Shown: piece by piece, positions 31,633 to 39,287 of the stretch
Layout: each line of letters opens with the position of its first letter
How positions within the stretch are numbered: position 1 is the first letter of the stretch
Source: Nitrospirota bacterium
GTDB lineage: Bacteria; Nitrospirota; UBA9217
Assembly: GCA_963705595.1 (NCBI GenBank)
Contig: CAVPKD010000007.1
Coordinates: forward strand, 2,640 to 66,639
DNA length: 64,000 nt
Reading direction: 5' to 3'
Made by a program: the position numbers and the translations under genes
Notes under the pieces: generated by a model
Told to the model about the DNA's origin: nothing
Databases searched by the model: none
Seen by the model: only the letters and a program-made list of their open reading frames with translations

Positions 31633-33631
31633 TCATACCAGGGCCGCTTCTACGACGTCCGCGATGGTGTCGACGAGCCGGATATCGATGTCTCTTTTCA
31701 TGTCGTCGGACAACTCCTCGACGTCGGCCCTGTTGCGTGCGGGCACGATCACGGTCTTGACCTTTGCTCGCTTGGCCGCAAGGATCTTATCCTGGATCCC
31801 GCCGACGGGGAGGATGCGGCCCGTAAGGGTTATCTCGCCGGTCATGGCGACGTCACGCAGGGCCGGCCGACCGGTCAGGAGCGAGACGAGGGCGATAAGG
31901 ATGGTGATGCCCGCCGAGGGGCCGTCCTTCTGGATCGCGCCGGAGGGTACGTGGATGTGGATGTCGTGGTGCTCGAAAAAATCATCGGGGATGCCGAAGG
32001 TTCCGGCATTGCTCCTGATGTAGCTGAGCGCCGCCTGAGCCGATTCCCGCATCACGTCGCCGAGCGAGCCGGTGATGATGAGTTCTTTGTCGCCCTTCAT
32101 TTTGGCTGCCTCGACAAAGATGATGTCTCCGCCGGTCTCGGTGCGCACGAGACCCGTGGCTACGCCGATCCGGTCCTGTTCCTCGATCACCTCGAAATGG
32201 AATTTTTTTCTCCCGAGATAGTGTTCCACGGACTCAGGGGCTATGGTCACGACCTCCGGGCCCCCCGTATTCTGGAGCGTTTTCCGGGCGATCTTGCGGC
32301 AGACCGTGGCGATCCTTCTTTCGAGGTTCCGGATGCCCGCTTCATGCGTGTATTCCTGGATGATCTTTTGCACGGCCTCATCGGTAAAGACGACCTGGTT
32401 CGAAGACAGGCCTTTTTCCCGTATCTGTTTGGGGCAGAGGAACCGCAAGGCGATTTGTGCCTTCTCCTCCTGCGTGTAGCCCGCGAACTCGATGACTTCC
32501 ATGCGGTCGCGGAGTGGCGCGGGGATGGTGTCAAGCACGTTTGCGGTGAGGATGAACATGACGCTCGACAGATCGAACGGCACGTCAAGGTAGTGGTCTA
32601 CGAAAGAGCGGTTCTGCTCGGGGTCGAGCACTTCGAGCAGTGCCGAGGCCGGGTCGCCCTTGAAGTCGCGTCCGATCTTGTCGAGTTCGTCGAGCATGAC
32701 CACGGGATTGGCCGATTCCACCCTCCGGATTTCCTCGATGACCCTGCCTGGCTTTGCGCCCACATAGGTCCTCCGGTGCCCACGGATGTCGGCCTCGTCC
32801 TTCAGCCCGCCGAGAGCGATCCTCGTGAATTTTCTGCCGAGCGCCTGGGCAATGGATTTCCCGAGCGACGTCTTCCCCGTACCTGGAGGGCCCGCAAAGC
32901 AGAGCACCGATCCCTTGGTGATGGGCCTGAGCGATTTTTGGTCGACCGCCCGCTTTACGGTGTCGCGCACTTCGTCGAGCTTGAACGGTTTTGCGATATA
33001 GTGGAACGCGCCTTTCTTCATCGCCTCGATGGCCGAGGGGACGGTGGCGTAGCCAGTCACCATGATCACTTTAGTGTCGGGGTATTTTATCTTGACCCGC
33101 TCCAGGAGATCCATGCCGTCGATTTTCCCCATGCGGAGGTCGGTCAGGACCACATCGAACTCCGAAGATTCCAGCACCCGGAGCGCTTCTGCTCCGTCCG
33201 CTGCCGTCATCACGTCATAATTCTCTTTCACCAGGATGTGCGCCAGGTTTTTCCTCGCGATCTCTTCATCGTCGACGACCAGGACGCGAGCCTTTTTGTT
33301 CATCATGAGCACCTTGATCGCCAGGTGCTCCATGATCCGCTCTTTGATCTTGTCCAGGCCATAATGGTTTTCATTCAGGATGCGCTCGGCACGGACGATA
33401 TCGAGATTGTCTTCGGTTTTTTTGTTCCAGGGCAGGGAAACGAGGTAGTCGATGTAGGTGATGCCGATGGTATATTCTGCGGACGAGGGACTGATCCTGG
33501 TCAGGAGTTCAAGTTCCTGTTCTGCGATCTTTTGCAACAGGAGGGGGCATGTGCGCCGACGATATCTTCTGGCGAAGTTCTTCAATGATAAATTCCTGCT
33601 GCTGGTCTTCTGATTTTTTAAAGAATTTCAT
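31633..33631 (-). CDS. lon: Lon-type ATP-dependent protease with an inserted receiver domain and no LON N-domain (frameshift near 33535)
   Basis: [14 protein letters not shown] insert, [22 protein letters not shown] (Ser), KILAAKR (Lys); start MKFFKK at 33631 with AGGTG RBS. Confidence 0.9.
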
Positions 33632-33734
33632 AGCACACCTTTGAAATTTTGAAACGGTTGCATTTTACAACGTTTTCATTTTTATTGCAACAGTCAAAAA
33701 TTGCTTGTAAATTCAATGGTTAATGGGCATTTGG

Positions 33735-33749
33735 TGCATTCCTATTGCA
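33735..33749. promoter_or_regulatory. NtrC-like activator site TGCA-N7-TGCA
   Basis: TGCATTCCTATTGCA, about 90 bp upstream of the -24/-12 element. Confidence 0.5.
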
Positions 33750-33835
33750 TTATAAAACATTCGGAACAAGAGCCTGATTCAAAAACTCAGCTCAATAATA
33801 GCATGATTTCAATATGTTAATGCTTTTATTTTTTC

Positions 33836-33851
33836 TGGCACGGTAGTTGTA
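33836..33851 (+). promoter_or_regulatory. Sigma-54 promoter, near-consensus
   Basis: TGGCACGGTAGTTGTA (TTGT instead of TTGC at -12). Confidence 0.7.
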
Positions 33852-33890
33852 ATAAGAATAGCAGAATAACAAATGATAAACAAGGAGGAA

Positions 33891-34073
33891 ATGACAATGA
33901 CAAGCATATTCAAGAAATTCGAAACAACAATGGTAGCAGCATCATTCGCGGAAGAGGGTGAGTTTGAGACAGCCCGCCAGATCATGAATGAAGATCGCCC
34001 GAGAAAGACCGACCGTCCGTCCGCCTATGATTACAAGCGGCCCGTTGCAAGAAAAGAACTGCGTGCAGACTAA
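33891..34073 (+). CDS. Small protein with AASFAEEGE motif
   Basis: Strong AAGGAGG RBS; motif shared with the next gene. Confidence 0.75.
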   Translation: MTMTSIFKKFETTMVAASFAEEGEFETARQIMNEDRPRKTDRPSAYDYKRPVARKELRAD

Positions 34074-34118
34074 GTTGCGCTTCGAGGGTCATCTTTGCGA
34101 GTAAATCCGGGGATTATC

Positions 34119-34623
34119 ATGGAAACGATCAATCTTAAGAAAATGATAAAAAGTATGGAAAGTGCTCTGACAGCAGCCTCCTTCGCGGAAGAAGGCGAAG
34201 CCGAGGCAGCACGGTCTATCCTGAAGGAAGACCGAAGGGTCCTTCTTGCGCTCAAAGAAGGACAGATCGACGCCAAGACCCTGAAATACGCTCTGAACAC
34301 TGCCAAGAGGATCGGCGCTCATCTCGACATTCTCACTGTTTCGGCAACGGGACGAGGAGCGAGCAAGCTGGACCCTTTGCTCGAGCATTTCGTAACGGAA
34401 CTCGGGGCGGAACGGATCCAATACCGCCTGATCCCGCGGACCGGTTGTCTCAAGCAGCAGATCATCGACTATACGAACAGCGAAAAGGAGATCCTTTTCG
34501 CCGTCATCGAATCACCGCACAGTCTCGATGCCGATTGCAATAAGAAGGACAAGAGCACTTTCGGAATTATGGCAGAAGCTGAAATGCCCGCTCGTCGTGG
34601 TCATGGACGGGGCCCGGGCATAG
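34119..34623 (+). CDS. USP-like protein with N-terminal AASFAEEGE motif (frameshift near 34555)
   Basis: RVLLAL...LKYALNTAKRIGAHLDIL; corrected C-terminus LWQKLKCPLVVV. Confidence 0.7.
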
Positions 34624-34722
34624 CACCCGCTTAGAAGAGATACGAATTTGACAGGAGAGGGGCGGAGAAAAGCATTTTTTGTCTCCGCGGTCCTGTCCAA
34701 AAAACCATAAGGAGGAATTATC

Positions 34723-34977
34723 ATGGCACAAAGCACCACAAAGAAGAAGCCGGTGGCGCAAGTTGATCGTTATGGGTATCATATCCATAGCGCTCTACAC
34801 GACCCTCCTGCTCAAGCAGGACCTGGTAAACAGCACCTTCGCCAAGGGGCGGAATGTATGCGCTGCTACCCGATCATCACGGCATTTGTTTTTTCGTACT
34901 TTCACGGTTCGTTCACCGGTAATTTCTGGACCGTGCTCGGCATCGAGGCCGCGAAGAAAAAGAAGGAGGTAAAATAA
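34723..34977 (+). CDS. Small two-TM membrane protein of the family found upstream of TauE transporters (internal indels)
   Basis: GGAGG RBS; KLIVMGIISIALY in an alternate frame; FSYFHGSFTGNFWTVLGIEA. Confidence 0.65.
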   Translation: MAQSTTKKKPVAQVDRYGYHIHSALHDPPAQAGPGKQHLRQGAECMRCYPIITAFVFSYFHGSFTGNFWTVLGIEAAKKKKEVK

Positions 34978-34978
34978 C

Positions 34979-36064
34979 ATGCATGACGTTCGCGCGAATT
35001 TCATCAATCTCGATGCCATCACCATCCTCTATCTGTTCGGGGTGGGTTTTGTCGGCGGTCTCGTAAGCGGATTCATCGGTTCCGGCGGCGCGTTCGTTCT
35101 CACGCCGGGCATGATGAGCCTGGGCGTCCCCGGGCTCGTGGCGGTGGCAAGCAACATGTGCCACAAGTTCCCCAAGGCGCTCGTGGGCGCGATCAAGCGG
35201 TCCAAGTACGGCCAGGTTGACGTGAAGCTCGGCCTCGTCCTCGGCGTATCGGCCGAAGCCGGCGTGCTCTACGGCGCCCATATCCAGGAGAAGATCAAGG
35301 CTGGCCTTCGGCGATGCCGGTTCGAACCTCTATGTGAGCGTGGCCTTCGTCGTGATCCTCGCGACGGTCGGCGGTTTTGTTCTCCGTGATGCCTGGAAGA
35401 CCTACAAAGTCCGGAAATTCCAATGCGGAGGAAAAGGCTGGGAAGCTCGCCAAGTGGGTACAGTCCATCAATATCCCGGGCACCATGGTCTATTTCAAGA
35501 GCATCAACGCACGCGTTTCGGTGCTCTTCACCATCCCCCTCGGTTTTGCAACAGGCATGCTGGCCGCCACGATCGCGGTCGGCGGTTTCATCGGCGTTCC
35601 CGCAATGATCTATGTCCTCGGCGCTCCCAGCCTCATGGCCTCGGCCACGGAGCTCGTGATCGCCTTTGTCATGGGTCTCGGCGGTTCGCTCAAGTATGCC
35701 ATGCACGGCCTGGTCGACATCCGGCTCGCCATGATCATCCTCGCCGGCTCGCTCTTCGGCATTCAGCTCGGCGCCATCGGCACCACCTATGTGAAGCCGT
35801 TCATGATCAAGGTCGTCATGGGCGTGATCATGGTGATCGTGCTGTTCAGCCGCGGCCTCATGGTCCCGGTATACCTGGCCCAGCTCGGGCTTATCGAGAA
35901 ACTTGAGCGACGGCACGGTGAGTTTGCTTAAGACCACCAGCTTTGCTATAATGATATTCGCATTGCTGCTCGGTGCATTCATCGTCCTGCGCGCCATGTG
36001 GCAGGGCCGTCAGGCCGAGAGACTGCAGCATGCGTCAGGAGCCCTGGAGCATGGGGAAGTATAG
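34979..36064 (+). CDS. TSUP/TauE-SafE sulfite exporter family permease (frameshifts near 35305, 35410, 35910)
   Basis: GLVSGFIGSGGAFVLTP, AVASNMCH, VDVKLG, IAVGGFIGVP, ASATEL, GIQLGA. Confidence 0.85.
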
Positions 36065-36912
36065 GAAGATCCTTGTTGCCGTCGATAGCTCGGAATCCAG
36101 CAGGAACGCGCTTCGCCAGGCGTTCAAACTGGCGAACGAAGAGAAATGCTGGATAACCGTCACGTCGGTGGTGCCCCCGTACGAAGGCGAGATCGAGATC
36201 CTCGGGGTCAAAGACATCAGGGCTGCGTTGAGAAAGCCCTGCGAAGACGCGCTCGCCGAGGTCCAAAAGATAGCCAAGACCGAGCGGATGCTCGTCAAGA
36301 CGGTATGTGAAGAAGGCGAGGTCCACGAGCGGATCGTAGACCTCGCCGATGCAGAGAACTGCGATGTTATCGTCATGGGAAGGCGCGGACTGCGCCGCAT
36401 CGAGCGTACGCTCATCGGGCAGCGTGACGGCGAGGGTCATCGGCCATACACAGCGGGACGTCCTTGTTGTCCCGAACGGCACGACGGTCGGCTGGAAAAC
36501 GATCGTGCTCGCGACTGACGGATCGAAGTACAGTGCTGCGGCAGCAGAGCGCGCGATCGCTTTCGCAAAGTCCTATGGCGGCGAGTTGAAGGTCCTGTCG
36601 GTCGTGGATGTGCCGACGGAATTTTATGCCGAGGCACCCAAGGCGGTAGAGGACCTCGTCCAGAAAGGCAAAAGGCTTCGTGGCCGATGTAAAAAAACAG
36701 GCCGAGGCTGCCGGTGTATCAGGCCGAGACCTTTGTGGGTGAGGCCGAAGCATACCAGGCGGTCAATAACCTGGCGCAGGAACAGAAGGCCAACATGATC
36801 GTTCTGGGATCTCACGGCAGGACCGGCCTCCGACGGCTCCTCATGGGCAGCGTCACCGAAAAGGTCATCGGTCATGCGCTCCTGCCCGGTGCTCGTTGTT
36901 AAAAGCTCATGA
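36051..36912 (+). CDS. Tandem-domain universal stress protein (several frameshifts)
   Basis: KILVAVDSS, IVMGRRG...GSVTARV, IVLATDGS, IVLGSHGRTGL...GSVTEKV. Confidence 0.85.
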
Positions 36913-37020
36913 TACGCACTGCTGCACTTTCCTCTTAACTTTTTTCCCATAACTTTTTTCCCGTATTGACAATACGACAGGCAGTGGTTTATAATCGGCA
37001 GCATAAAGAAGGGGTGATCC

Positions 37021-37206
37021 ATGGAAGGACTTTTTCAGCCGATGCATTTGATCCTAATATTGTTTATCGTGCTCATTATTTTCGGCCCGGGGAAGCTTCC
37101 CGAGCTTGGAGAAGGACTTGGAAAGAGTATCAAAGCGTTTAAGAAGGGCATGAAGGACGAACAGAACGCCACGGCAATAGAACATAAGGAAGAAAAAAAG
37201 GCATAG
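37021..37206 (+). CDS. tatA: Twin-arginine translocase TatA/E subunit
   Basis: LIIFGPGKLPELGEGLGKSIKAFKKG. Confidence 0.92.
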   Translation: MEGLFQPMHLILILFIVLIIFGPGKLPELGEGLGKSIKAFKKGMKDEQNATAIEHKEEKKA

Positions 37207-37386
37207 CCTGCTCCCTCTAATCTTAGAGCTACCCCAGGACATGAATAAAGGTCTGCCATCTCTTGTTCATGTCCTTCCATTTTCTGCCTGCTCCCATGCT
37301 CTTTTCACCTTGCTTTTTCAAAAAAACTGTATTATCTTTAACACAGCACTTGTCCAACGAACCGCTTTTTCTTTGACCGCATTTCT

Positions 37387-39207
37387 ATGCCTGACAAGGT
37401 ATCCCCAGCTAAAGGAATCATAAAGTCCCTCGGCCTCGTGTTCGGCGATATCGGCACGAGCCCGATCTACACCTTACGGTCATTATCCTTCTCACGAAGC
37501 CTACCGAGGCAAATATTTTCGGGGTCCTGTCGCTCATTGTCTGGACGCTCATCATCCTGGTCACCGTGGAATACGCCTGGCTCGCCATGAGCCTCGGCAA
37601 GCGCGGTGAGGGCGGTACCATCGTGCTCCGGGAACTCCTCGTCCCGCTCCTCAAGTCGGGCAGGCAGGTGGCGCTTGTCACCCTGCTCTCATTCATCGGC
37701 ATCTCACTGCATCATCGGCGACGGCGTGATCACGCCGGCCATCAGTATCCTGAGCGCCGTCGAAGGCATGCTCCTCATCCCGGGATTCGAAGCGACGAAC
37801 CAGACCGTCGCTCATCGTCATCGCCGGGCTCATTGCGATCGTCCTCTTCTCGTTCCAGAAGAAGGGGACCGAAAAGGTCGCGGGCGCATTCGGGCCGATC
37901 ATGCTCCTCTGGTTCGCAGCCCTTACGATCTCCGGCATCAGCCTCGATCATCCAGGTCCCGTCCGTGGTCAAGGCCGTGAACCCTTACTATGCATTCAAG
38001 TTCCTGTACGAGAACGGCATCACCGGCTTCTTTGTGCTCTCCGAGGTCATCCTCTGCGCCACGGGCGGCGAGGCGCTGTACGCGGACATGGGACATCTGG
38101 GCCGTGAGCCCATCGTTCGTGCATGGTACTTCGTGTTCTTTGCCCTCGTGCTCAACTATCTCGGCCAGGGCGCGTTCCTTATCGCTGCATCCCGACGCCA
38201 AGAACGTGCTGTTCGAGATGGTCTTCCATCAGGCACGGTTTCTCTACATCCCATTCCTGCTTCTCAGCATCATCGCCACGGTCATCGCGTCGCAGGCCAT
38301 GATCAGCGGCATGTTCTCGATCGTGTACCAGGGCATCACCACGCGTATCATGCCCATGTTCAAGGTGGACTACACCTCCGAGGAGCGGCATTCCCAGATC
38401 TACATCGGTTTCGTCAACTGGTTCCTGCTCCTCGCCGTGCTCTTCATCATCATGGAATTCCGCGAATCGAGCAAGCTTGCGGCAGCCTACGGCCTGGCGG
38501 TCACCGGCACCATGACGCTTACCGGCATCTTCATGACCTGGATATTCTATCTCAGGAGAAAATTCGGCACGATCGGCACTCTCGCTCCTCGTGACCTGGT
38601 CACCATGACGTTCCTCATGTCCAATACCTACAAGATCCCTCATGGCGGGTACTGGTCCATCATCATCGCCGCAATCCCGTTTCTGATCATCATGCTTTAC
38701 CGGACGGGCCAGCGGAAGCTCTACTATGCGCTCCAGCCGCTGCCGCTCGACGTTTTTCTGCTCGAGCTATAACCAGATCTATCAAGGCCGTGAACAAGAT
38801 CAGCGGCACGGCCCTTTTCTTCGCCCGGGACGCAAAAGAGATGCCCCCCTATATCGTTCATACCATGTTCAAGAACAATATCATCTATGAGGACAATATC
38901 ATCGTCTCGATCGTCAAGCGGGAAGACCCCTTCGGCGTCACGGGCTTCTTCAAGGAGGATCTTGCACCCGGGCCTCAGGTCCTTCGAGATCCAGATGGGG
39001 TACATGGAAGTGCCGGATGTGGAGGAGATCCTGCGCGAGGCGGGGATCAGCGAGAAGACCATCTTCTACGGGGTCGAGGATATCATTCCGACGAACATCA
39101 TCTGGCAGATATTCTCGGTCATCAAGCGACTGACGCCGAACATCGTCCAGTTCTACAAGCTCCCGGCGAACAAACTGCATGGCGTGGTGACGCGGGTGGA
39201 GATGTAG
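37387..39207 (+). CDS. kup: KUP/HAK/KT potassium transporter (roughly 8 frameshifts)
   Basis: GLVFGDIGTSPIY, GEGG, GDGVITPAISILSAVEG, TGGEALYADMGH, ASQAMISG, LAAAYGLAV. Confidence 0.88.
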
Positions 39208-39287
39208 TGGTGAACGCGATAAGACCGCGTTAAGCGAACAGGCGGGAAGAAGATACGGGATACTCATCTGCAAAAAAAGAGGTGTCC

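What the first reader, a model, noticed from the sequence alone, without database searches (positions are those of the whole stretch)
33891..34210. A shared AASFAEEGE motif on a free peptide and on a USP-like protein opposite the REC-Lon
Seen: the first two genes of the divergent sigma-54 operon both encode (T/V)AASFAEEGE-x-E-x-AR-x-I (33936-33962 and 34173-34199); one is a stand-alone ~60-aa peptide. Inference: a docking motif or degron for the N-domain-less Lon, the kinase or the TauE complex, with the peptide acting as decoy or adaptor in a feedback loop.
Basis: partly seen in the sequence, partly recalled or inferred. Interest (0 to 1): 0.68.

Follow-up and report, generated by a model that had tools for sequence, protein, structure and literature searches.

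The report
Portable helical tag in stress-transporter operons
The shared AASFAEEGE sequence is real: it is one copy each of an undescribed, widespread ~35-residue helix-turn-helix tag that anaerobic bacteria attach to small peptides, stress-protein-like regulators, receiver domains and a transporter subunit. Its distribution follows sigma-54-controlled anion-transporter operons more closely than the unusual Lon protease next door.

Summary
Both genes carry AASFAEEGE at the stated coordinates, inside a longer shared block (18/34 identical residues).

A 37-position profile of the block finds 1,535 protein clusters in a 1.84-billion-protein library. It matches 110 of 301 sampled Nitrospirota genomes and 50 of 301 Desulfobacterota genomes.

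- **The peptide:** it is a genuine 58-aa gene under purifying selection. It is the first gene behind a conserved TGGCAC-N5-TTGT promoter.
- **The module:** it is predicted as a helix-turn-helix that resembles TPR repeats below threshold. It is portable and occurs:
  - free, as 1-3 units with a basic tail;
  - at the N-terminus of, or inside, USP-like proteins (1-4 units);
  - at the C-terminus of receiver proteins;
  - in about 41 Desulfobulbales loci, fused to the small membrane protein that precedes TauE.
- **Relation to REC-Lon:** the two dissociate in both directions, so an obligate Lon degron is unlikely.
  - Motif-bearing Desulfobulbales genomes have no REC-Lon.
  - 16 REC-Lon/TauE loci have no motif.
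  - In Nitrospirota, however, 50 of 51 REC-Lon genomes carry the motif.

My best reading is a docking or assembly tag that ties cytoplasmic regulators to sigma-54-controlled anion-transporter modules. On this reading the peptide is the free form of the transporter subunit's arm. The binding partner is unresolved.

The parts
33836..33850 (+). Sigma-54-type -24/-12 promoter, TGGCACGGTAGTTGT, 61 nt upstream of the peptide start
   Evidence: Read from the sequence. The same TGGCA[CT]-N5-TTGT element lies 54-77 nt upstream of the peptide gene in 11 of 18 orthologous loci. Similar elements precede motif genes in other operon types.
33897..34073 (+). Gene for the 58-aa free peptide (MTSIFKKF...RKELRAD*): motif unit plus a basic Pro/Arg-rich tail. 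Shine-Dalgarno AGGAGG at 33883-33888.
   Evidence: At least 249 homologues, mostly 58 aa. Third-position bias of substitutions, 208/141/509. No Pfam or NCBIfam hit.
33900..34010 (+). Motif unit 1 (37 profile positions: TSIFKKFETTMVAASFAEEGEFETARQIMNEDRPRKT). Core AASFAEEGE at 33936-33962.
   Evidence: HMM score 68.7 bits, E = 1.1e-18 in the own genome. Orthologous units are predicted as helix-turn-helix.
33993..34070 (+). Basic tail of the peptide (DRPRKTDRPSAYDYKRPVARKELRAD)
   Evidence: Conserved columns R42 P43 S44 R50 P51 K55 R58 D60. The equivalent tail of the two-unit relative is predicted disordered. By eye...YKRPVARK resembles the juxtamembrane ...RKKPVGK of the small membrane protein.
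34119..34623 (+). Gene for the USP-like protein (about 167 aa in intact orthologues) with the motif at its N-terminus. The window copy has a frameshift near 34551-34557.
   Evidence: The intact orthologues L004:5635-6135 and P0121 are 167 aa. In the AlphaFold2 model the alpha/beta core has pLDDT about 90. The best Foldseek matches are universal stress proteins, TeaD first. No Pfam Usp hit at E <= 0.01.
34137..34247 (+). Motif unit 2 (KKMIKSMESALTAASFAEEGEAEAARSILKEDRRVLL). Core AASFAEEGE at 34173-34199. It runs directly into strand beta-1 (RRVLLAL) of the USP-like fold.
   Evidence: HMM score 56.3 bits, E = 4.2e-15. In the orthologue model: helix 3-22, turn 23-27, helix 28-38, pLDDT 48-60.
34723..34977 (+). 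Small two-helix membrane protein (83 aa in intact orthologues) that precedes TauE. The middle of the window copy is out of frame.
   Evidence: In Desulfobulbales the homologue carries the motif as an N-terminal arm (115 aa).
34979..36061 (+). TauE/SafE (TSUP) family transporter, 360 aa in orthologues. Several frameshifts in the window.
   Evidence: Pfam PF01925 on both halves. tblastn pieces and the intact orthologue P0123.
36051..36887 (+). Tandem universal stress protein (282 aa in orthologues)
   Evidence: Pfam PF00582. Conserved position after TauE in 30 of 34 well-flanked loci.
31633..33631 (-). Divergently transcribed REC-Lon protease (665 aa in orthologues; short Lon N-terminal remnant, receiver domain, AAA+, protease). 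Frameshift near its 5' end in the window.
   Evidence: Pfam Response_reg, AAA, Lon_lid and Lon_C. Intact orthologue P0124. Gene maps.
28736..31629 (-). Histidine kinase (HAMP-HisKA-HATPase) and sigma-54-dependent response regulator, downstream of REC-Lon
   Evidence: Pfam. Gene maps.

Best explanation
**What it is.** The shared sequence is one unit each of a previously unnamed, portable helix-turn-helix module of about 32-37 residues. Its consensus is K-x-[LM]-[LMF]-K-K-[FIL]-E-x-x-M-x-A-A-x-F-A-E-[AE]-G-E-[FH]-[ED]-T-A-R-x-I-[LM]-x-E, and it resembles a single TPR-like hairpin.

**What I propose it does.** It is a protein-protein docking or assembly tag of sigma-54/two-component-controlled operons built as 'USP-type regulator plus anion transporter'.

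**How it would work in this window.**
- The 58-aa protein (tag plus basic tail) is the free-standing counterpart of the cytoplasmic N-terminal arm that Desulfobulbales fuse to the small membrane subunit next to TauE.
- The USP-like protein carries the second tag.
- The two tags either pair with each other or bind the same site at the membrane complex.
- The peptide would therefore tether the USP-like regulator to the transporter, or compete with it there. This would set transporter activity after the operon has been induced.

**Shown:**
- that the module exists, how large the family is, and where it is found;
- its architectures and gene order, and the promoter in front of it;
- the fusion to the small membrane protein;
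- the predicted hairpin;
- its independence from REC-Lon.

**Inferred:**
- that it binds anything at all;
- the identity of the partner;
- the tether or competitor role of the peptide.
For: - **Family size.** 1,535 clusters at E <= 1e-3 and 234 at E <= 1e-10. The motif occurs in 110 of 301 Nitrospirota and 50 of 301 Desulfobacterota genomes.
- **Portability across architectures**:
  - free peptides of 1-3 units;
  - the N-terminus of USP-like proteins;
  - an internal position in USP-like proteins;
  - 2-4 units ahead of a USP domain;
  - the C-terminus of receiver proteins;
  - the N-terminus of the small membrane protein.
- **Gene-fusion clue to a shared site of action.** The 115-aa Desulfobulbales protein is the motif arm plus the small membrane protein. 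It is found full-length in about 41 loci, always just before TauE.
- **Copy number.** Two copies per locus is the mode (52 of 80 loci). One copy sits on a USP-like protein and the other on a peptide or the small membrane protein.
- **Linkage in 34 well-flanked loci**:
  - TauE: 30
  - tandem USP: 30
  - sigma-54 regulator: 30
  - REC-Lon: 19
- **Structure.** Helix-turn-helix is predicted in two different proteins, with low confidence of packing onto the host domain. This is typical of a partner-dependent binding element.
- **TPR likeness.** Sub-threshold TPR_4, TPR_14 and TPR_6 hits fall on the units. PF07721 is precomputed for two-unit peptides.
- **Precedent.** The USP-like core is closest in fold to TeaD, a USP that modulates a transporter.
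- **Selection.** The peptide is under purifying selection and is the first gene after the sigma-54-type promoter.
Against: - No binding or complex prediction could be run; no multimer tool was available.
- The AlphaFold2 monomer model of a natural two-unit peptide gives no confident unit-to-unit packing (pLDDT 63, pTM 0.32). Direct tag-tag pairing is therefore unsupported.
- The motif also accompanies a second, unrelated transporter family (CitMHS/Na_sulph_symp). A docking site on TauE itself would not explain this. A partner common to all contexts, such as the kinase, the regulator or a USP domain, fits that fact better.
- Some loci have peptide, USP-like protein and REC-Lon but no TauE nearby (L027, L028, L035).
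- Some loci with the USP-like protein have only one motif copy (L129, L130).
Confidence: 0.4

Rival explanations
1. The tag docks onto the signalling proteins: the histidine kinase or the sigma-54 response regulator of the same module. Motif-bearing USP-like proteins, receiver proteins and peptides would then be accessory inputs or feedback elements of the two-component system, and the free peptide a competitor.
For: - A homologous kinase plus sigma-54 regulator pair is the most constant neighbour across all contexts:
  - 30 of 34 TauE-type loci;
  - the paralogous cluster of kinase, regulator, internal-motif USP and a second TauE;
  - the CitMHS-type operons;
  - the receiver-motif loci, which contain kinases.
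- The motif gene is usually the first gene after the regulator's sigma-54 promoter.
- Fusion of the tag to a receiver domain suggests traffic with a kinase.
Against: - No direct evidence.
- The fusion to the small membrane protein points to the transporter complex, although the kinase is also membrane-bound.
- Co-occurrence with the kinase and regulator may only reflect shared transcriptional control.
Confidence: 0.2
2. The tag is a degron or adaptor handle read by the phosphorylation-controlled, N-domain-less REC-Lon. The peptide acts as decoy or adaptor, adding a proteolytic arm to the circuit.
For: - In Nitrospirota 50 of 51 REC-Lon genomes carry the motif (Fisher p = 6.6e-25).
- REC-Lon is the divergent neighbour of the peptide gene in many loci.
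- The tag region is flexible in models.
- REC-Lon lacks the usual substrate-binding N domain.
- In D. vulgaris the Lon, kinase and regulator mutants have cofitness above 0.9.
Against: - Dissociation in both directions:
  - 60 Nitrospirota genomes have the motif without REC-Lon.
  - Four Desulfobulbales genomes with motif-bearing operons have only canonical Lon.
  - 16 loci with REC-Lon, the small membrane protein and TauE have no motif by a permissive HMM.
- The CitMHS-type motif operons have no Lon.
- The strong Nitrospirota association can be explained by membership of one inherited gene cluster.
Confidence: 0.1
3. The acidic hairpin is a small sensing element rather than a docking site. It would sense, for example, a cation or pH, and its copy number would tune sensitivity.
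For: - The core is an invariant cluster of carboxylates (A-E-x-G-E-x-E/D).
- The D. vulgaris system responds to high pH and other stresses, and its regulator also targets K+ uptake genes.
- A Kup K+ transporter gene follows the operon in the window.
Against: - No known ligand-binding fold of this size matches. PDB sequence search gives only a chance-level similarity to a ParD-like helix pair (E = 0.21).
- Hydrophobic positions are as conserved as the acidic ones, which suits a protein interface.
Confidence: 0.07
4. The first ORF acts in cis as a leader or arrest peptide that controls translation of the downstream genes. Its resemblance to the USP-like N-terminus would then be incidental to that role.
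For: - It is always the first ORF of the transcript.
- The C-termini of relatives end ...LRA[D/E/N]-stop or ...LRAPG... This loosely recalls RAPP/RAGP arrest motifs.
Against: - No Pro-Pro or Gly-Pro at the end.
- The context is not Sec/YidC.
- The whole 58 residues are conserved as protein.
- The same module is a stable part of larger proteins, and the peptide is replaced by a fusion to the small membrane protein in other lineages.
Confidence: 0.04

Closest known systems
DVU3303-DVU3305 'three-component system' and its target operon DVU3302-DVU3298 in Desulfovibrio vulgaris Hildenborough (Rajeev et al. 2011, PMC3333781; Kazakov et al. 2015, PMC4641369; Trotter et al. 2023, PMC10102598)
   Same: - Same layout: Lon with a receiver domain, a histidine kinase and a sigma-54 response regulator, divergent from a five-gene operon. 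That operon holds three hypothetical proteins, a putative membrane/anion-transporter protein and a UspA-domain protein.
- The window has peptide, USP-like protein, small membrane protein, TauE and tandem USP in the same order.
- DVU3299 is needed under chlorate stress, and the three signalling genes are cofit.
   Different: - None of these papers describes the shared motif or the small peptide.
- I could not fetch DVU3302-3300, so whether they carry the motif is untested.
- The window organism is a Nitrospirota MAG, not a Desulfovibrio.
Tetratricopeptide (TPR) and TPR-like helical hairpin repeats
   Same: - Predicted helix-turn-helix of about 30 residues.
- The small/large residue pattern V/A-A..F...G-E-F/Y-E-x-A...M fits TPR positions 7, 8, 11, 15-17, 20 and 24. 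This alignment is mine, by eye.
- Sub-threshold Pfam TPR hits. A bona fide TPR kinase protein (P0377) is picked up by the profile.
   Different: - It does not reach any Pfam TPR gathering score.
- It occurs as single units, or as units separated by 10-40-residue charged linkers, not as a contiguous superhelical array.
- TPR positions 4, 27 and 32 are not kept.
Universal stress proteins that regulate transporters or kinases: TeaD of the TeaABC TRAP transporter; the USP domain of KdpD
   Same: - The second gene's core has the USP alpha/beta fold. TeaD (3hgm) is the best Foldseek match and the KdpD USP domain (7ji4) is also listed.
- It is encoded next to a transporter, as teaD is.
   Different: - No Pfam Usp hit at E <= 0.01.
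- The ATP-binding glycine motif is replaced by SPxSLDxDC.
- It carries the extra N-terminal tag, which TeaD lacks.
Protease degrons and adaptors (ssrA tag, SulA C-terminus for Lon, and similar)
   Same: A short, portable, flexible sequence shared by otherwise unrelated proteins and encoded beside a protease gene.
   Different: - Distribution does not follow the protease.
- It is a conserved 35-residue hairpin rather than a short terminal tag.
- It can be internal or repeated.
- No degradation data exist.

Membership tests
TPR repeat (Pfam clan TPR) | Helix-turn-helix unit of about 34 residues | tested here: met
   AlphaFold2 gives helix 3-22, turn, helix 28-38 in the USP-like orthologue. In a two-unit peptide it gives helices 2-19/23-29 and 43-55/59-67. 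Confidence is low (pLDDT 48-79).
TPR repeat (Pfam clan TPR) | Score at or above the gathering threshold of a TPR model | tested here: not met
   No hit for either window protein. The best score on a multi-unit relative is TPR_4 at 24.8 bits against a cut-off of 27.
TPR repeat (Pfam clan TPR) | Contiguous tandem arrays (usually 3 or more) forming a superhelix | tested here: not met
   Units are single, or separated by charged linkers of variable length. The two-unit model has pTM 0.32.
Universal stress protein (PF00582), for the second gene | USP alpha/beta fold | tested here: met
   Foldseek finds 29 PDB matches at E <= 1e-3, of which 27 are USPs, led by TeaD 3hgm at E = 1.4e-5, probability 1.00. 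Core pLDDT is about 90.
Universal stress protein (PF00582), for the second gene | Pfam Usp model at gathering score | tested here: not met
   No Usp hit at E <= 0.01 for the window protein. The Desulfobulbales homologue scores 17.4 bits against a cut-off of 24.
Universal stress protein (PF00582), for the second gene | ATP-binding motif G-x2-G-x9-G-[ST] | tested here: not met
   The 40-sequence alignment shows SPxSLDxDCxK..LSELW at that place, with no glycine motif (judged by eye).
Lon degron or adaptor | Occurs where the protease occurs, and not without it | tested here: not met
   Motif without REC-Lon: 60 of 110 Nitrospirota genomes and four Desulfobulbales genomes. REC-Lon/TauE loci without the motif: 16. 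The positive association holds only within Nitrospirota (50 of 51).
Lon degron or adaptor | Tag-dependent binding or degradation by the protease | not testable with these tools
   Needs biochemistry or a multimer prediction.
DVU3302-3298 / DVU3303-3305 stress module | REC-Lon, kinase and sigma-54 regulator divergent from an operon of hypothetical proteins, a membrane protein and UspA | tested here: met
   Domain content and order agree with the published description.
DVU3302-3298 / DVU3303-3305 stress module | The D. vulgaris hypothetical proteins carry the same motif | not tested
RAPP-like ribosome arrest peptides | C-terminal RAPP/RGPP/RAGP at the stall site, upstream of Sec/YidC genes | tested here: not met
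   The window peptide ends KELRAD*. Relatives end LRA[DEN]* or LRAPG... The downstream genes are a USP-like protein and TauE. Motif definition taken from PMC10951233.

The most novel reading that the evidence does not exclude
The FAEAGE hairpin is a previously unrecognised, multivalent interaction tag. It would wire small free peptides, USP-type regulators, receiver domains and a transporter subunit into sigma-54-controlled anion-transport complexes of anaerobic sulfur-cycling bacteria. Free 1-3-unit peptides would act as diffusible subunits or competitors and so form a new class of small-protein transporter regulators. Where a receiver-domain Lon is present, it could be one of the readers of the tag.
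Probability: 0.3. Interest if true: 0.7.

Novelty: new variant of a known kind. Interest (0 to 1): 0.5.

Why it matters
**Scale and absence from curation.**
- The module defines a large family: 1,535 clusters at 50% identity. It is present in about a third of sampled Nitrospirota and a sixth of sampled Desulfobacterota.
- It has no Pfam or NCBIfam model and no mention in the searchable literature.
- It includes a 58-aa protein that standard annotation often misses.

**Link to an experimentally studied system.**
- It belongs to a stress and anion-transport module for which genetics already exist in a model sulfate reducer: the DVU3298-3305 genes, with their chlorate phenotype and induction by several stresses.
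- The roles of three 'hypothetical' genes and of the receiver-Lon in that module are unknown.

**What follows if the tag is a docking element.**
- It gives a concrete handle on how USP-type proteins are coupled to transporters.
- It also gives a natural test set for dissecting that coupling: free, fused and repeated versions of the same tag.

Tried and rejected
- **Chance or low-complexity similarity:** rejected on profile E-values and conservation.
- **Peptide as a spurious ORF or a fragment of a frameshifted gene:** rejected. It has its own stop, 58-aa orthologues and coding-type substitution bias.
- **Strict regex scan of the genome:** it found only the two window copies. The HMM later found two more divergent ones, so the statement 'only two copies' was withdrawn.
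- **PDB sequence search with the motif profile:** only a chance-level match to a ParD-type antitoxin helix pair (E = 0.21). A ribbon-helix-helix reading was rejected.
- **Docking of the tag onto its own USP-like core:** not supported (pLDDT 48-60).
- **Tag-tag packing in a natural two-unit peptide:** not supported (pTM 0.32).
- **Literature search for the motif strings:** nothing relevant.
- **Supplements of the D. vulgaris papers:** they give annotations only, no sequences and no fitness values for DVU3300-3302.
- **Multimer structure prediction:** not available.
Full report
**1. Observation**

The + strand downstream of 33836 reads as follows:
- a sigma-54-type element TGGCACGGTAGTTGT (33836-33850);
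- a strong Shine-Dalgarno sequence (AGGAGG, 33883-33888);
- a small ORF;
- 45 nt later, a second ORF starting at ATG 34119.

AASFAEEGE is encoded at 33936-33962 and 34173-34199, exactly as reported. The similarity extends over 34 residues, with 18 identical (BLASTP E = 0.052 for the single pair). The peptide most likely starts at ATG 33897, which gives 58 aa; this is the length of almost all homologues.

The window comes from a long-read-type MAG with many indel errors:
- The second gene is frameshifted near 34551-34557. Its true C-terminus...ELWQKLKCPLVVVMDGARA*, is read in the other frame.
- REC-Lon, the small membrane protein, TauE, the tandem USP, Kup, the kinase and the regulator are also broken.
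- Genome completeness is given as 77.9%.
- I therefore used intact orthologues (L002, L004) wherever a full protein was needed.

**2. The peptide is a real gene and the motif is a real family**

The peptide has at least 249 homologues. Most are 58 aa, 74-93% identical over the whole length, and come mainly from Nitrospirota MAGs. Against 18 orthologues, substitutions fall 208/141/509 on codon positions 1/2/3. That is the signature of a translated gene under purifying selection.

TGGCA[CT]-N5-TTGT lies 54-77 nt upstream of the start in 11 of 18 orthologous loci and in the window.

I built a 37-position profile from 47 motif segments of different architectures (A2). Its results:
- 1,535 clusters at E <= 1e-3 and 234 at E <= 1e-10 among 1.84 billion representative proteins;
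- the two window copies at E = 1.1e-18 and 4.2e-15 within the genome;
- two further, more divergent copies elsewhere in the genome: C10:25822, a 166-aa USP-like protein with an internal unit, and C9:57492, a 59-aa ORF with half a unit.

The motif occurs in 110 of 301 sampled Nitrospirota genomes, including 57 of 64 in the window's own family, and in 50 of 301 sampled Desulfobacterota genomes. Neither window protein has a Pfam or NCBIfam hit. The motif strings do not occur in the searchable literature.

**3. Anatomy of the module**

The consensus is K-x-[LM]-[LMF]-K-K-[FIL]-E-x-x-M-x-A-A-x-F-A-E-[AE]-G-E-[FH]-[ED]-T-A-R-x-I-[LM]-x-E.

AlphaFold2 predictions:

| Protein | Secondary structure of the unit(s) | Confidence |
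|---|---|---|
| Intact USP-like orthologue | helix 3-22, turn at EEGEA, helix 28-38 | pLDDT 48-60 in the unit; about 90 in the alpha/beta core |
| Natural two-unit peptide | two such hairpins (2-19/23-29 and 43-55/59-67), then a disordered basic tail | mean pLDDT 63, pTM 0.32 |

The unit is therefore a helical hairpin that is not confidently packed on anything in a monomer model.

The spacing V/A-A..F...G-E-F-E-x-A...M fits TPR positions 7, 8, 11, 15-17, 20 and 24 (my alignment, by eye). Pfam gives only sub-threshold TPR hits; the best is TPR_4 at 24.8 bits against a cut-off of 27. Two-unit peptides carry a precomputed PF07721 hit. I call the module TPR-like but do not file it as a TPR.

The core of the second protein is a USP fold. 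Of the 29 PDB matches at E <= 1e-3, 27 are USPs, with TeaD first. It lacks a Pfam Usp hit and the ATP glycine motif.

**4. Architectures and contexts**

Across 160 loci from species-representative genomes, plus contigs from metagenomes, the unit appears in these forms:
- (a) free peptides with a basic tail, as 1 unit of 56-60 aa or as 2-3 units of 87-140 aa;
- (b) the N-terminus of 150-175-aa USP-like proteins;
- (c) an internal site (around residue 55) of 160-aa USP-like proteins in a paralogous cluster of kinase, sigma-54 regulator, a second TauE and USP;
- (d) 2-4 units ahead of a canonical USP domain;
- (e) the C-terminus of stand-alone receiver proteins;
- (f) the N-terminus of a 115-aa protein whose remainder aligns with the 83-aa small membrane protein that precedes TauE.

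Form (f) is present full-length in about 41 Desulfobulbales loci, always in the order USP-like(motif), small membrane protein(motif), TauE, tandem USP.

Linkage in 34 loci with at least 6 kb of flank on both sides:

| Neighbour | Distance | Loci |
|---|---|---|
| TauE | within 5 kb | 30 |
| Tandem USP | within 6 kb | 30 |
| Sigma-54 regulator | within 10 kb | 30 |
| REC-Lon | within 10 kb | 19 |

Two copies per locus is the mode (52 of 80 loci).

Forms (d) and (e) occur next to an unrelated anion-transporter family, CitMHS/Na_sulph_symp, often with TrkA_C. These operons again lie behind a kinase plus sigma-54 regulator pair and a TGGCA-N6-TTGC-like promoter, and they have no Lon.

**5. Test of the Lon idea**

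Within Nitrospirota the association is strong but one-sided:
- 50 of 51 genomes with REC-Lon have the motif.
- 60 genomes have the motif without REC-Lon.
- The 2x2 table is [[50,1],[60,190]], Fisher p = 6.6e-25.

Outside Nitrospirota the link breaks in both directions:
- Four Desulfobulbales genomes with motif operons, including the isolate Hydrosulfovibrio ferrireducens, encode only canonical Lon paralogues.
- Two Nitrospirota MAGs without REC-Lon near the motif locus likewise encode only canonical Lon.
- 16 loci have REC-Lon, the small membrane protein and TauE but no motif. These include loci from Desulforhopalus, Desulfopila, Desulfogranum and Desulfobulbus rhabdoformis. The result comes from an HMM run with all filters off and a score floor of 8 bits.
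- In those loci the small membrane protein carries a different conserved arm, MRQNDPYQTQLSV....

An obligate degron-protease pair should not show this pattern. A lineage-specific use of the tag by REC-Lon remains possible.

**6. What it most likely does**

Three facts favour an intermolecular docking or assembly tag:
- it is portable across unrelated host domains;
- it is flexible in monomer models;
- its copy number varies, with disordered charged linkers between units.

The fusion to the small membrane protein places one copy at the transporter complex. The second copy sits on the USP-like protein. USP proteins that modulate transporters are known; TeaD is an example.

I therefore propose that in this window the peptide is the free equivalent of the small membrane protein's arm. 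By eye, its ...YKRPVARK tail even resembles the juxtamembrane ...RKKPVGK segment. The peptide and the USP-like protein would then meet through the tag, or compete for one site, at the complex of small membrane protein and TauE.

This mechanism is inferred, not shown. The CitMHS contexts argue that the true partner may be something common to all contexts: the kinase, the regulator or a USP domain. I keep that as the main rival. Ion sensing by the acidic hairpin and a cis-acting leader-peptide role are minor rivals.

**7. Comparison with what is known**

The gene set matches the D. vulgaris Hildenborough module:
- DVU3305 binds upstream of DVU3302-3298 and of DVU3303-3305. The operons respond to high pH, heat and stationary phase.
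- DVU3299 is needed under chlorate stress. Mutants in DVU3303-3305 are fitter in chlorate and are mutually cofit.
- Those papers list DVU3300-3302 as hypothetical proteins and do not mention a shared motif. I could not obtain their sequences.

Another note reported the same stand-alone motif ORF in a different genome. Both were treated as leads only.

**8. Verdict**

A docking-type motif tied to TauE/USP operons is plausible. A specific Lon degron is disfavoured.
- Novelty: a new variant of a known kind, namely a TPR-like hairpin used as a portable single-unit tag, together with a new small-protein family.
- Interest is moderate (0.5). The family is widespread and links to a genetically tractable stress system, but its function remains inferential.

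Noticed in passing
window 28736-39233: Nearly every gene of this region is interrupted by frameshifts relative to intact orthologues:
- sigma-54 regulator, near 28880;
- kinase, near 31395 and 31547;
- REC-Lon 5' end, near 33540-33575;
- USP-like gene, near 34551-34557;
- small membrane protein, two shifts between 34755 and 34860;
- TauE, near 35300, 35400 and 35895;
- tandem USP, near 36420 and 36715;
- Kup, several.

The genome is rated 77.9% complete. Assembly indel errors look more likely than pseudogenes.
   Followed up: partly
window 34119-34623 (alignment A3): The USP-like family keeps one invariant cysteine (KCPLVVV) and two further conserved cysteines (TGCLKQ and LDxDC), at the place where canonical USPs have the ATP-binding glycine motif. 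A redox or metal site is conceivable.
   Followed up: no
window 34050-34073; L042, L044, L054, L055, L057, L064, L075: Peptide C-termini end either ...LRA[D/E/N]-stop or ...LRAPG(I/L)K(R). The conserved LRA just before the stop loosely recalls RAPP/RAGP arrest motifs but does not meet their definition.
   Followed up: partly
L133-L162 (e.g. L136:7908-8285, L138, L142, L146, L159): In Desulfobulbales loci that have REC-Lon but no FAEAGE motif, the small membrane protein carries a different conserved N-terminal arm: M(R/N)QNDPYQTQLSV..., S/T/K-rich, about 45 aa. It may be an alternative cytoplasmic handle.
   Followed up: no
genome contig C10:25822 (+) and C9:57492 (-), outside the window: There are two further motif copies in the same genome:
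- a 166-aa USP-like protein with an internal unit (MGKRQLLFVTYRDEN...AVSFAEVDEHDTARQIM), which belongs to the paralogous kinase-regulator-TauE cluster type seen in L010 and L013;
- a 59-aa ORF with half a unit.
   Followed up: partly
L163, L166, L167, L168; L050:9183-12664: There is a second operon type. It consists of kinase, sigma-54 regulator, a protein with 2-4 motif units plus a USP domain (or a receiver protein with a C-terminal unit), and a CitMHS/Na_sulph_symp permease, often with TrkA_C and a CBS protein nearby.
   Followed up: partly
window 33657-33671: The palindrome GTTGCATTTTACAAC lies in the divergent intergenic region. It resembles the DVU3305 binding sites listed in the 2011 supplement (GTTGCGAATGCAAC, GTTGCATTGGTAAC), but its half-sites are spaced one base further apart.
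   Followed up: no
L009 and L041: Two contigs carry the complete Nitrospirota-type locus at 51-93% protein identity. Their MAGs are labelled Betaproteobacteria (MAG281) and Chloroflexota (MAG246). This is likely mis-binning rather than distant transfer.
   Followed up: no
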